Positions 436 to 3,400 of a stretch of 52,541 nucleotides of DNA are shown in pieces. Every line of letters begins with the position of its first letter. The stretch's first letter is position 1. Origin of the DNA: a virus (taxonomy: Duplodnaviria > Heunggongvirae > Uroviricota > Caudoviricetes); the IMG/VR virus record IMGVR_UViG_2531839449_000043. One strand, written 5' to 3'. The position numbers were made by a program.

Positions 436-3400
436 TGAGTTCACAGATAAAACACTCTCCAGGAAACCCGGGGCGGTTCAGCCAGTAACCCGGGTCGTCC
501 GTGTGATTCGGGTTTACGTTTTTGCTGCGATTGTCTTTGTCTTTGAGAGTGGAAACCATATTTGCTACAGTTTCTGGTTTCTTTCCTTCAGCTTTTTCTT
601 TCAGTGTCTGCCCTGTTTCTGCAATGAATGGAATGCGGATTTCCATCTGGTAACCGTCTGCGCCAGTCTTTCTGTTTGTGGTTAATACTTTCTGGAGGAC
701 GAGTCCGATTTTCTTTCCGTGAAACTCAGGTGCAACATATTTACTGACGGAAACCATATGCTGCGTTAACTGCCCAATTCCTGTGCATCCCATCATGGCG
801 TGAATAATGCTCGCCCCAAATTTATTTTCAGTGCCGTCATTCTTCTGAACACAAACACTGAGATATTGGATTTTCCGTCCGTCGTCGGATTCTCCAGAAA
901 ACTCAATGAATCGGGCACCTTTTTCTGATTGCTTGAGTTCTGCTTCGGTGATGTTAATGATATGCGCACCCGTTTCGGTAATAAAACCACCTTGTCCGGC
1001 GGTCAGTGCTGATTCTTCGTTATAAGTAAAAATCACTTCATCCATTAGTTATTAACCCCCCATTGTTCTCCAAATACAAAACCAATTTCTGCCAGTGCTT
1101 CGTCCATTTTGTCGATGAACTCCGGCACCATCTCATCAAAACTCGCCATGTACTTTTCATCCCGCTCGACCACGACATAATGCAGGCCTTCACGCTTCAT
1201 GCGTGGGTCGTAGTTGGCGAAGTACCAGGCGTCCTTGTCTGTAACCCACATGCTGAATTGCACCTGGGCCATGTAAGCAGGCTTGATAGCGTCAAAGCCG
1301 CCAAGCCGGAACTTCATGAAGTCGCGGGAAGTAAAGGGGCATTTAAGCTCAAGACCGTTACCGTCACTGCATAAACCATCGGGAGAGCAGGCGGTGCGCA
1401 TGCTTTCGTCACGAAAAATTATGGGTGTTTCCGAGACGGTAACATCCGCGATAAATTCAAAGAGGGCACGGGCATCATCTTCATATTGCTTTCCCCATGC
1501 GAGCGACTTAGCGTTAACTTCCGGTGCCACGCCAGTACAAACTTCAGCCAGCAGGGTGTGGAAGTATGACATTTTTGTATCAGGCCATTTGCTGCCGGAA
1601 CGTGGCTTTGCTATCACATTGTGAACTTCTGAAGCAGTGATAACACCGAGTCTCAGCTTGTGCCATCCATCATCGCCCTGGTCGAGGCTGGTAATATCCA
1701 CGCCAGTTCGCTGGAGAATAATTTCTGGTGTCATGACACGGCCTCGCTGTTATTTTCCGTGGTGGCGTGAATTTTCGCTTCCGCCGTGGCCTTGTTTCTG
1801 GCAGCTTTCTTTTTGACAAAATCAAGCGTTTTGACAGCTTCTTCCTGAGAGAGAGCTTCATGTGATGCAATCGTGCGACGGAATGTTTTGGAACATACGG
1901 GAAGCAGGTCATCCCATGTCTTGTTAATTTCGGTGATTGCCTGAGTGATCTCATTGATAATCTCATCTGATGCGGGAGTGACGTCACGCTCAGGGATATG
2001 ATCAGCATTCAGGATGATACCTTCACCGGCCTGAGTGTTCAGGTAGTCGATAGCTGTATCCAGGCGATCGCGACGGGGCCAGTATTTGCTGGCGCGCTTA
2101 ACAATGGCTTTTCTGGCCATTTCATCGGGGAAACTATCCCACGGGCTACTTCCTCCGTTATTTCCGGCTTTGCTGCACGCCCTGATGACCTCGATTTCCC
2201 TGTTGCTCATCTCTTCGGTCAGATAGTCGCCTTCGGATGTTTTTACGACACAATAACCGCCAATGCGTGCGCCCCTGTCTACGAAGGGGTTGTATTTGTG
2301 CGTGGGGGCGCAGTCAATACCGTTGGACTCGTAAATGTCCTTCTCGTAAACAAGTTTGCATTGCCCCCACTGAATGGCTCCTGTGACCTGTGCCAGATGC
2401 AGAAGCCCCATATAACTGATATCCAGGCATACAGCCTTTTTTCGTGGGACCAGATACGCCAGCTTGCTGGCCGGGTTCAGGGTTATGCCGATGGCGGCAA
2501 CATTGATGATAGCGTTCTGTGCGCTGGGCAGATTTGCCCTTGCTGTGTCAGCCAGAAAGGCATTTTTCTGGAATTGCTGAATTGCAAACTGACTTTCCTT
2601 CGCCCATGTCAGCGTCGGTTCAGTTAATGCCTCGCAGAAAAAGCGCTCCTGCTGCTTAACAAATTCAACGATATCGAACATTTTTTGGTCCTGAAAATCA
2701 GAAAGGACAGGGGGAGAATTTTCTCTCCCATTCTTCTTCCGCCCGAGCATAGGCGATCGCTGAGATATAATCGTTGTACGCCTCTTCAGCTTTTTCGCCA
2801 GTGAGTGCTAGTTGGGCTTCTTTGGGTAAAAAAAGGCTGCTCATAAGCAATGGTTTATCGGGGAACATGCTGATAAGCTCCTGCGCCCGATCATCAATCC
2901 ATTTATCCTTTTCATCCTGAATTTGCTGATTAATCCAGCGACGCTCCTCTATGCGGTCGCAGGTGAGGTATGCGTTCATGGCGGAACTCCTGATTCCGGT
3001 TAATGCATTAAATTAATTTGTCGGGAAAGCTGACATACAGGGCAGTTACATTCTTCCTCCTGCTCCTTAGCGAAGAAATATGCAGCGGCCTGTAATGCGA
3101 TATCTTCTGGATGTTCCGCGATAAACATAACATTGCCTTCCGTATCAATAACAGAAATAGCCTCATCAGACAGGACGACAAAATAGGCGATGATTTTATC
3201 ATCCATAAAAACTTCTCCCATTATCGTTCCTGCTGGAGTTACGACGCTTTTTACATTGATATTTATTTTTTGATTGAGCATGATATTTCCCTTCAGGCTG
3301 GTGAGATTAACGGTTGGCCTTTATTGTTCAGGTAAACTTCTATTGCATCTGAGATAATGCGAATTTTTTCAATCAGTGAATGTGCGTAAAGTGCATTATT

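What the first reader, a model, noticed from the sequence alone, without database searches (positions are those of the whole stretch)
1731..2684. Chimeric annealase: RecT-family core fused to a lambda Bet-like C-terminal tail, paired with lambda-type Exo
The central region has the RecT signature (SKAGNNG..SPW..EMARKAIVKRASKYWP), while the C-terminal ~60 residues resemble the Bet C-terminus, which I understand to contact Exo. The partner gene is a near-lambda Exo. This looks like module shuffling that keeps the Exo-docking tail while swapping the annealing core.
Basis: partly seen in the sequence, partly recalled or inferred. Interest (0 to 1): 0.5.

Follow-up and report, generated by a model that had tools for sequence, protein, structure and literature searches.

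The report
RecT-core annealase with Bet-type Exo-docking tail
A Shiga-toxin phage recombination gene joins a RecT-type DNA-annealing core to the small C-terminal domain that lambda Bet uses to dock on lambda exonuclease; the tail travels with the neighbouring exonuclease gene as one swappable unit, but close relatives and the domain-shuffling idea are already in the literature.

Summary
Window 1731..2681 (-) encodes a 316-aa annealase. Residues 1-212 are RecT-type: they pass Pfam RecT and TIGR00616, give no hit to the Bet model TIGR01913, and the best structural match is Listeria RecT 7UB2. A disordered linker (213-231) leads to a three-helix domain (232-300). That domain is 52% identical to the lambda Bet C-terminal domain (CTD) and superposes on PDB 6M9K at 0.8 A. 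The overlapping downstream gene is 88% identical to lambda Exo.

The chimera is not a one-off. In 80 related loci, all 26 with a Bet-type CTD have a lambda-type exo directly downstream. CTD divergence tracks Exo divergence (Mantel r=0.90) rather than its own core (r=0.35). Interface residues co-vary by class. One E. coli contig is a clean recombinant that crosses over inside recT, at the block encoding EMARKxIVKRASKYWP, and carries CTD plus exo together.

The same CTD also sits on ERF-type and unclassified cores. Phage phi80 RecT has the same architecture and is known to be functional. CTD shuffling among annealases was noted in 2021 and proposed for this protein type in 2025. I class it as a new member of a known kind, of moderate interest.

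The parts
1731..2681 (-). recT-type annealase gene (316 aa plus stop); its stop codon overlaps the exo start (ATGA)
   Evidence: ORF list and sequence. P0001, 316 aa, is 99% identical. Annotated as RecT family recombinase in Ss-VASD, TL-2011c, P13374 and RefSeq E. coli.
2046..2681 (-). Annealing core, residues 1-212 (RecT subfamily)
   Evidence: Pfam PF03837 E 1.7e-24. TIGR00616 scores 65.9 bits, above its cutoff, and there is no TIGR01913 hit. AF2 pLDDT is ~88-93. The Foldseek top hit is LiRecT 7ub2, E 4e-6. Identity to Rac RecT is 33%.
2076..2123 (-). Conserved block encoding EMARKAIVKRASKYWP (residues 187-202), which is the intragenic crossover zone
   Evidence: The block is nearly invariant in alignments A1 and A4. 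The recombinant L089 switches parent within the 60-nt bin around recT codons ~187-206.
1989..2045 (-). Flexible linker, residues 213-231
   Evidence: AF2 pLDDT is below 50 for 213-231. It corresponds to the disordered Bet 183-194 linker (PMC6393309). In LC727856.1 an IS is inserted here, after residue 230.
1782..1988 (-). Red-beta-type C-terminal three-helix domain, residues 232-300 (predicted docking module for Exo and the host SSB tail)
   Evidence: phmmer against the PDB hits 8tfu/6m9k at E 1.7e-18. Foldseek to 6m9k_D gives TM 0.91, rmsd 0.8 A and 51% identity. Pocket residues are V262, T266, F288 and V289, equivalent to Bet L223, I227, F249 and L250. R268 and K292 are kept, equivalent to Bet R229 and K253.
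1734..1781 (-). 16-residue C-terminal extension (301-316) with no counterpart in lambda Bet
   Evidence: Alignment A1. Confidence is low at the very end of the model.
1045..1734 (-). Lambda-type exonuclease (229 aa)
   Evidence: 88% aa identity to lambda Exo, E 4e-160. Pfam YqaJ E 2.5e-28. The 82% nt homology to lambda begins exactly at its start codon.
1438..1488 (-). Exo helix E region (residues 83-99), the predicted CTD-binding ridge
   Evidence: L91 and F94, which are essential for the complex in PMC6393309, are conserved. T90A, T95I, S96A and G97D differ from lambda. Nine of the 28 aa differences from lambda Exo fall in residues 86-107.
2698..2979 (-). gamL-type host nuclease inhibitor gene upstream, part of the same Rec module
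   Evidence: Annotated GamL in RefSeq, Ss-VASD and phi80. Only the first ~15 residues resemble lambda Gam.
481..1045 (-). SSB-like gene of the Rec module, 3' end cut by an IS
   Evidence: 99.7% identical to Ss-VASD gp20, annotated 'single strand DNA binding protein'.

Best explanation
The gene encodes a two-domain single-strand annealing protein. The N-terminal domain is a RecT-subfamily annealing core. A flexible linker joins it to a Red-beta-type three-helix CTD.

By homology with the lambda Exo-Red-beta CTD crystal structure, the CTD should clamp helix E of the co-transcribed, translationally coupled lambda-type Exo trimer. This would load the RecT core onto the 3' overhang as Exo makes it. 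The same pocket should then be able to bind the host SSB C-terminal tail.

In evolution, CTD plus exo behave as one cassette. That cassette recombines onto different annealing cores (Red-beta, two RecT clades, ERF, others). The conserved DNA encoding EMARKxIVKRASKYWP at the end of the core serves as the crossover site.

Shown here: domain architecture, homology, co-inheritance, interface co-variation, and one natural recombinant. Inferred: physical CTD-Exo and CTD-SSB binding, and annealing activity.
For: Architecture: establish a RecT core, a disordered linker, and a CTD that superposes on 6M9K at 0.8 A.

Partner: Exo is 88% identical to lambda Exo and the two genes overlap by 4 nt.

Interface: Exo L91, F94, Q83, D87, L184 and Y186 are kept. 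CTD F288, R268 and K292 (Bet F249, R229, K253) are kept, and V262 replaces Bet L223 conservatively.

Co-inheritance:
- 26 of 26 loci with the CTD have a lambda-type exo immediately downstream, and none of the CTD-bearing loci lacks one.
- Spearman rho for Bet-CTD identity against lambda-Exo identity is 0.89 (p 7e-9); for core against Exo it is -0.09.
- Mantel r is 0.90 for CTD-Exo, 0.35 for core-Exo and 0.35 for core-CTD.
- The CTD HMM detects tails only where the downstream Exo is at least ~35-39% identical to the query Exo.

Interface classes co-vary. Lambda-like pairs have CTD L/I/F/L with Exo T-L-F-T. The Morganella/Proteus class has F/K/M/L with M-T-F-Y. The Yersinia/Serratia class has A/L/S/M with L-L-F-E.

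Natural recombinant: L089 is ~98% nt identical to the HK140/P0112-type locus through recT codon ~190-200. From there it is 96-100% identical to this window through the CTD, exo and beyond. Its downstream gene changes from Sipho_Gp157 to YqaJ exo accordingly.

Other cores: an ERF-core annealase (P0195) and one with no Pfam match on its core (P0163) carry the CTD and are also directly followed by a YqaJ exo.

Function of a relative: phi80 RecT is 55% identical over its full length, has the same gamL-rec-exo layout, and is needed for phi80 recombinant formation (PMC3945230).
Against: No binding or activity data exist for this protein.

CTD-coding DNA abuts exo, so co-inheritance could reflect physical linkage plus selection against breaking a domain, rather than co-adaptation. 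The loci are phylogenetically non-independent, so the p-values are optimistic.

The query's CTD is more diverged from lambda's (52%) than its Exo is (88%). Pocket residues differ (L223V, I227T, L250V, Q252K, E256R), so affinity and specificity cannot be assumed.

One ERF-plus-CTD locus (P0169) shows no recognisable exo downstream. P0150's contig is too short to judge.
Confidence: 0.8

Rival explanations
1. The CTD mainly binds the host SSB C-terminal tail (or a phage SSB). Its association with exo would then be only genetic linkage, because its coding DNA lies next to exo.
For: The Red-beta CTD binds the SSB C-terminal peptide through an overlapping site (PDB 8tfu hits; PMC6393309 and PMC11611040). 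An SSB-like gene sits just downstream of exo here and in L094 and L095. Adjacency alone predicts some co-inheritance.
Against: From my own knowledge, not tested here: the SSB tail is essentially invariant across Enterobacterales, so it would not drive three distinct pocket classes. Those classes change together with Exo helix E residues 90, 91 and 95. Same-core proteins without an exo neighbour carry a completely different tail. The two roles are not mutually exclusive.
Confidence: 0.12
2. A recent one-off hybrid formed between lambda bet and a Rac-like recT in this Stx phage lineage.
For: Exo is lambda-like (88%), and the window is a lambdoid Stx phage that often recombines with lambda relatives.
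Against: blastn finds no lambda homology in the CTD-coding DNA; homology starts at the exo ATG. The CTD is only 52% identical to lambda's. The core is 33% identical to Rac RecT but ~70% to a large enterobacterial clade. The same architecture occurs in phi80, Cronobacter and Klebsiella phages and in prophages of many genera.
Confidence: 0.03
3. The whole protein is simply a divergent Bet homologue, or the tail resemblance is chance or compositional.
For: Lambda Bet itself matches Pfam RecT, so the two belong to one superfamily.
Against: There is no TIGR01913 hit, against 169.5 bits for lambda Bet. BLASTP aligns nothing from the core. The fold search ranks LiRecT first for the core. Tail similarity has E 1.7e-18 with 0.8 A rmsd.
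Confidence: 0.01

Closest known systems
Phage phi80 Rec ('RecT-phi80', AFV29174) with phi80 Exo and GamL
   Same: Same gene order, gamL - recT-type annealase - lambda-type exo. It is 55% identical over the full length. Its core is RecT-type and its CTD is Bet-type, 74% identical to the lambda Bet CTD. It has been shown to drive phi80 recombination (PMC3945230).
   Different: It belongs to the second core clade (~54% core identity). Its CTD is closer to lambda's than the query's is. It lacks the 16-residue C-terminal extension.
Lambda Red-beta (Bet) / lambda Exo (PDB 6M9K, 8TFU, 7UJL)
   Same: The CTD is homologous (52% identity, 0.8 A). Exo is 88% identical. The genes overlap by 4 nt. The key interface residues Exo L91 and F94 and CTD F249, R229 and K253 are conserved.
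   Different: The annealing core belongs to a different subfamily: TIGR00616 rather than TIGR01913. Pocket residues are changed (L223V, I227T, L250V), as is Exo helix E (T90A, T95I).
Rac prophage RecT / RecE
   Same: The core belongs to the same RecT subfamily, with 33% identity and shared SKAGNNGPW and KY(W/L)P motifs.
   Different: Rac RecT has no Bet-type CTD and pairs with RecE. The query scores 72 bits against the Rac RecT equivalog model NF007351, whose cutoff is 296.
HK140 / Salmonella-type RecT (P0112), called 'SAP sequence type 4' in PMC12315714
   Same: The core is ~70-73% identical, and it is 100% identical to the core of the natural recombinant P0003.
   Different: Its ~90-aa tail is unrelated, and a 160-aa Sipho_Gp157 protein ('Mu Gam-like') follows it instead of an exonuclease.

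Membership tests
RecT subfamily of the RecT/Red-beta superfamily (Pfam PF03837, TIGR00616) | Profile scores above the curated cutoffs | tested here: met
   PF03837 scores 86.9 bits (cutoff 24). TIGR00616 scores 65.9 bits (cutoff 52.65).
RecT subfamily of the RecT/Red-beta superfamily (Pfam PF03837, TIGR00616) | RecT-type fold of the annealing domain | tested here: met
   The AF2 core has pLDDT ~90. The Foldseek top PDB hit is LiRecT 7ub2_E, E 4e-6. No Red-beta core chain (7UJL) appears among the 50 listed hits.
RecT subfamily of the RecT/Red-beta superfamily (Pfam PF03837, TIGR00616) | ATP-independent ssDNA annealing activity | not testable with these tools
   Only inferred, from homology and from phi80 RecT genetics (PMC3945230).
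Rac RecT equivalog (NF007351) | Equivalog-level score (at least 296 bits) | tested here: not met
   The score is 72.1 bits, so this is not an orthologue of Rac RecT.
Lambda Bet equivalog (TIGR01913) | Bet-type annealing core | tested here: not met
   No hit at E <= 0.1. The lambda Bet control scores 169.5 bits. BLASTP aligns nothing from the core.
Red-beta C-terminal domain (three-helix bundle; PDB 6M9K, 8TFU) | Sequence homology to the Red-beta CTD | tested here: met
   phmmer E 1.7e-18 and ~52% identity over ~70 residues.
Red-beta C-terminal domain (three-helix bundle; PDB 6M9K, 8TFU) | Three-helix bundle fold after a disordered linker | tested here: met
   The predicted model has helices 239-251, 256-266 and 279-314. 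The match to 6m9k_D gives TM 0.91 and rmsd 0.8 A.
Red-beta C-terminal domain (three-helix bundle; PDB 6M9K, 8TFU) | Hydrophobic pocket (Bet L223, I227, F249, L250) plus K253 and R229 | tested here: inconclusive
   The query has V262, T266, F288, V289, K292 and R268. F, K and R are kept and L-to-V is conservative, but I-to-T is polar.
Red-beta C-terminal domain (three-helix bundle; PDB 6M9K, 8TFU) | Physical binding to Exo helix E and to the SSB C-tail | not testable with these tools
   Requires a pull-down, ITC or a structure of the complex.
Lambda exonuclease family (YqaJ, PF09588) | Profile match and close identity to lambda Exo, with helix E L91 and F94 present | tested here: met
   PF09588 E 2.5e-28. 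Identity to lambda Exo is 88%. L91 and F94 are conserved.
Two-component exonuclease-annealase recombinase (SynExo / EATR) | Adjacent, co-oriented, translationally coupled annealase and 5'-3' exonuclease genes | tested here: met
   The recT stop and exo start overlap (ATGA at 1731-1734) within a gamL-recT-exo-SSB-like module.
Two-component exonuclease-annealase recombinase (SynExo / EATR) | Specific protein-protein complex of the two partners | not testable with these tools
   Supported only indirectly, by CTD-Exo co-variation.

The most novel reading that the evidence does not exclude
The Bet-type CTD and lambda-type exo form a co-evolving, portable 'loader cassette' with at least three mutually adapted specificity classes of the helix E-pocket interface. 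The cassette can be grafted by homologous recombination onto unrelated annealing cores (Red-beta, two RecT clades, ERF, others). The grafting site is the conserved EMARKxIVKRASKYWP-encoding block. If so, partner specificity in phage exonuclease-annealase pairs resides entirely in about 70 residues and is naturally re-assortable. That would give a rule for engineering orthogonal or portable recombineering pairs.
Probability: 0.45. Interest if true: 0.5.

Novelty: new member of a known kind. Interest (0 to 1): 0.35.

Why it matters
A 2023 review states that it is unknown whether RecT-type annealases use a Red-beta-like CTD to bind their partner (PMC11611040). The 2019 structure paper reported no significant sequence homologues of the CTD (PMC6393309).

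This gene, its relatives and the natural recombinant L089 show that a RecT core can carry that CTD whenever the partner is a lambda-type Exo, and that the tail follows the nuclease rather than the core. This gives natural specificity classes for testing how exonuclease-annealase pairing is encoded, and suggests CTD swaps as a way to re-pair recombineering components.

It does not change the overall picture. The family is annotated and phi80 RecT is a studied member. Shuffling of a Red-beta-like CTD among annealase families has been remarked on (PMC8093625) and was proposed for exactly this protein type (PMC12315714).

Tried and rejected
- A CTD-profile search with the search for homologous proteins returned only 20 hits, mostly short or partial proteins, so it said little about architecture.
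I rebuilt it without lambda.
- The representative search gave only 63 hits at E <= 1e-3. The family is therefore narrow at sequence level, and more remote CTD classes such as the HK140-type tail could not be linked to it.
- blastn of the CTD-coding DNA against lambda found nothing, which rules out a recent lambda origin.
- P0150 (ERF core plus lambda-like CTD) sits on a 1.8-kb contig with no DNA available, so its partner is unknown. Phage tblastn with P0150 hit ERF cores only.
- P0169 has no recognisable exo downstream.
- Literature searches for Stx-phage RecT descriptions found no discussion of this gene's architecture. The Smug et al. 2023 mosaicism paper does not mention annealases. The Genome Research 2025 supplements are not held.
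- I looked for a divergent helix-E patch in exo as evidence of a separate mosaic origin. Non-synonymous changes do cluster there, but synonymous ones are also raised, so this is only suggestive.
- No prediction of the Exo-CTD complex was possible with the tools.
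Full report
**What is there**

The window is a lambdoid Shiga-toxin phage of the Oslovirus / O104:H4-phage type. Region 1045-2750 is 100% identical to Shigella phage Ss-VASD and 99% identical to TL-2011c, P13374 and many Stx2a phages. In those records the genes are annotated GamL, RecT-family recombinase, lambda-family exonuclease and an SSB-like protein.

The gene in question lies on the minus strand at 1731..2681 and encodes 316 aa. The finding's upper coordinate is one codon too far. The in-frame ORF extension up to 2750 overlaps gamL and is not used by the database protein P0001. The recT stop codon overlaps the start codon of the downstream exonuclease gene at 1045..1734 (ATGA), as bet and exo do in lambda.

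**Checking the observation**

- *Core.* Residues 32-205 match Pfam RecT (E 1.7e-24). The protein passes the NCBIfam RecT-subfamily model TIGR00616 but falls far below the Rac RecT equivalog cutoff.
- *Not Bet-like in the core.* BLASTP to lambda Bet aligns only residues ~179-301. The protein does not hit the Bet model TIGR01913, which lambda Bet hits at 169.5 bits.
- *Tail.* A sequence search of all PDB chains returns only Red-beta CTD entries, 8TFU (E 1.7e-18) and 6M9K.
- *Structure.* An AlphaFold2 model has mean pLDDT 81.6. It shows a confident core (1-212), a linker with pLDDT below 50 (213-231), and three helices (239-251, 256-266, 279-314). Foldseek against the PDB ranks Listeria RecT 7UB2 first for the core. 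It places the tail on the Red-beta CTD of 6M9K with TM 0.91, rmsd 0.8 A and 51% identity.
- *Partner.* The exonuclease is 88% identical to lambda Exo.

Lambda Bet also belongs to Pfam RecT, so the chimera is between subfamilies of one superfamily.

**Is it a one-off?**

No. The full-length search found 4,951 homologues. The best 120 come from Escherichia, Serratia, Yersinia, Morganella, Providencia, Proteus, Klebsiella, Salmonella and Enterobacter.

Across these the core is uniformly ~70-73% identical to the query, but the tail varies widely. It ranges from 98% identical, through 45% and ~31%, to undetectable. Some relatives (P0007, Serratia P0010, Klebsiella P0087) have tails closer to the lambda Bet CTD than to the query's.

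Among phage records the tail occurs in 277 genomes, including lambda-type Bet proteins, phi80 RecT, Cronobacter ENT47670 and Klebsiella phages. Phage phi80 has the same gamL-rec-exo layout. Its Rec is 55% identical to the query over the full length, and its tail is 74% identical to the lambda Bet CTD.

**Does the tail go with the exonuclease?**

I fetched 80 related loci from one genome per species and scored each for three things: core identity, tail type and the downstream gene.

- All 26 loci with a BLAST-detectable Bet-type tail have a lambda-type exo (50-85% identical to the query's) directly downstream, mostly with a 4-nt overlap.
- Of the 54 other loci, 28 have no exo, 25 have only a distant (<45%) YqaJ-type nuclease, and one has a broken recT.
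- Identity of the tail to the Bet CTD correlates with identity of the nuclease to lambda Exo (Spearman 0.89, p 7e-9). Core identity does not (-0.09).
- All-against-all Mantel tests give r = 0.90 for CTD vs Exo, 0.35 for core vs Exo and 0.35 for core vs CTD. For example, two Morganella loci share 53% core, 85% CTD and 98% Exo identity.
- A tail HMM detects the domain only where the neighbouring nuclease is at least ~35-39% identical to the query Exo.
- Same-clade proteins with the unrelated tail (HK140, Salmonella P0112, Klebsiella, Enterobacter) are followed by a 160-aa Sipho_Gp157-family gene, annotated 'Mu Gam-like' in HK140.

These loci are not phylogenetically independent, so the p-values are generous. 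The discordance between core and tail is nevertheless plain.

**Interface**

Caldwell et al. 2019 (PMC6393309) showed that Exo helix E (T90, L91, F94, T95) inserts into a CTD pocket formed by L223, I227, F249 and L250. Polar contacts involve CTD Q226, R229, Q252, K253 and E256. Mutating Exo L91 or F94, or Bet L223 or F249, abolishes the complex.

In the query, Exo keeps Q83, D87, L91, F94, L184 and Y186 but has T90A and T95I. The CTD keeps F288 (Bet F249), R268 (R229) and K292 (K253) but has V262 (L223), T266 (I227) and V289 (L250).

Across the 26 pairs, the pocket and the ridge change together in three recognisable classes:

| Class | CTD pocket | Exo ridge |
|---|---|---|
| Lambda-like | L/I/F/L | T-L-F-T |
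| Morganella / Proteus / Xenorhabdus | F/K/M/L | M-T-F-Y |
| Yersinia / Serratia | A/L/S/M | L-L-F-E |

Nine of the 28 amino-acid differences between this Exo and lambda Exo fall in residues 86-107. Synonymous changes are also raised there, so this is only suggestive.

**A natural recombinant**

Protein P0003 (E. coli) is 100% identical to Salmonella-type P0112 through the core. From the block EEMARKTIVKRASKYWP onward it is ~97% identical to the query.

At DNA level its contig (L089) is ~98% identical to the P0112-type locus, including the upstream gene, up to about recT codon 190-200. It then switches to 96-100% identity with this window through the CTD, exo and the next gene. As predicted, the downstream gene changes from Sipho_Gp157 in the P0112 loci to a YqaJ exonuclease in L089.

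This is direct evidence that CTD plus exo are exchanged as a unit. The crossover sits in the most conserved stretch at the end of the core.

**Other cores**

A CTD profile searched against 1.84 billion representative proteins gave only 63 hits at E <= 1e-3. Besides RecT-type proteins, these include ERF-superfamily proteins (P0150, P0169, P0195, P0190, P0175, P0187), a Gp3-like protein, and proteins with no Pfam core match.

P0195 (ERF core) and P0163 (core with no Pfam match) are each directly followed by a YqaJ exonuclease and an SSB gene. P0169 is not, and P0150's contig is too short to tell.

**Mechanism (inferred)**

By homology with 6M9K and 8TFU, the CTD tethers the RecT core to each subunit of the Exo trimer, on the face where the 3' overhang emerges. 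The annealase is thereby loaded as the overhang is made. The same pocket can later bind the host SSB C-terminal tail. Overlapping stop and start codons would give coupled translation of the two partners. None of this was measured for this protein. The closest experimental support is that phi80 RecT is required for phi80 recombinant formation (PMC3945230).

**Prior knowledge and novelty**

- The 2019 structure paper stated that sequence comparisons of the CTD revealed no significant homologues.
- A 2023 review says it is unknown whether RecT-type annealases use a similar CTD.
- Steczkiewicz et al. [quoted passage not shown]
- A 2025 survey of lambdoid Rec modules (PMC12315714) names TL-2011c and phi80 as carriers of 'SAP sequence type 4'. 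[quoted passage not shown]

The finding is therefore a correct and well-supported example of a known kind of mosaicism in an annotated gene family. What may be new here is the quantitative tail-nuclease coupling, the interface classes and the recombinant. These are of moderate interest to recombineering and phage-evolution specialists.

Noticed in passing
window 1-480 and ORF 245..1045 (-): An IS3-family insertion sequence occupies window 1-480 (transposase ORF at 10..438 +). It is 95% identical to the IS copy in LC727856.1. It sits 23 nt before the 3' end of the SSB-like gene. The last 7 residues (QYGSDSF in Ss-VASD gp20) are therefore replaced by IS-derived read-through, which produces the 266-aa ORF. 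The lost ...GSDSF end resembles an SSB-type acidic/aromatic tail, which might be a ligand for the CTD (speculative).
   Followed up: partly
L086 (LC727856.1) 2450-3352 and 3234-4446: In Stx2a phage Stx2a_2409 the same IS interrupts recT right after ...NADHIP (residue 230), inside the core-CTD linker. No exo ORF of at least 70 aa is listed up to about 0.6 kb beyond the IS (ORF list to L086 5000). About 30 phage records have a core at least 95% identical but no matching CTD (96 records against 62), so this truncated form seems common.
   Followed up: partly
L089 (E. coli ABZBRG010000062.1) 3600-6017: This is a natural recombinant locus. It is ~98% identical to the HK140/P0112-type locus up to recT codon ~190-200, and then 96-100% identical to this window through the CTD, exo and the next gene.
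   Followed up: yes
L087 (HK140) 2501-3878; L091 1263-2631; L007-L026 class-E loci: Same-clade RecT proteins with an unrelated ~90-aa tail are always followed by a 160-aa Sipho_Gp157 (PF05565) protein, annotated 'Mu Gam-like end protection' in HK140. That tail may be a different partner-specific adaptor.
   Followed up: partly
L088 (phage phi191) 2201-3452: In phi191 the gam-like gene is annotated as 669 nt and recT as only 480 nt, and the core match is split into two pieces. This looks like a frameshifted or fused gamL-recT.
   Followed up: no
window 2698..2979 (-): The GamL-type inhibitor (93 aa) resembles lambda Gam only in its first ~15 residues (MNAY..DR.E..W). GamL-type upstream genes occur with both tail classes, so the upstream module assorts independently of the CTD-exo unit.
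   Followed up: partly
window 1734..1781 (-), residues 301-316: A 16-residue extension ([17 protein letters not shown] region) follows the CTD. It is absent from lambda Bet, phi80 RecT and most relatives, and is shared only with near-identical E. coli proteins and the recombinant P0003. Its function is unknown.
   Followed up: no
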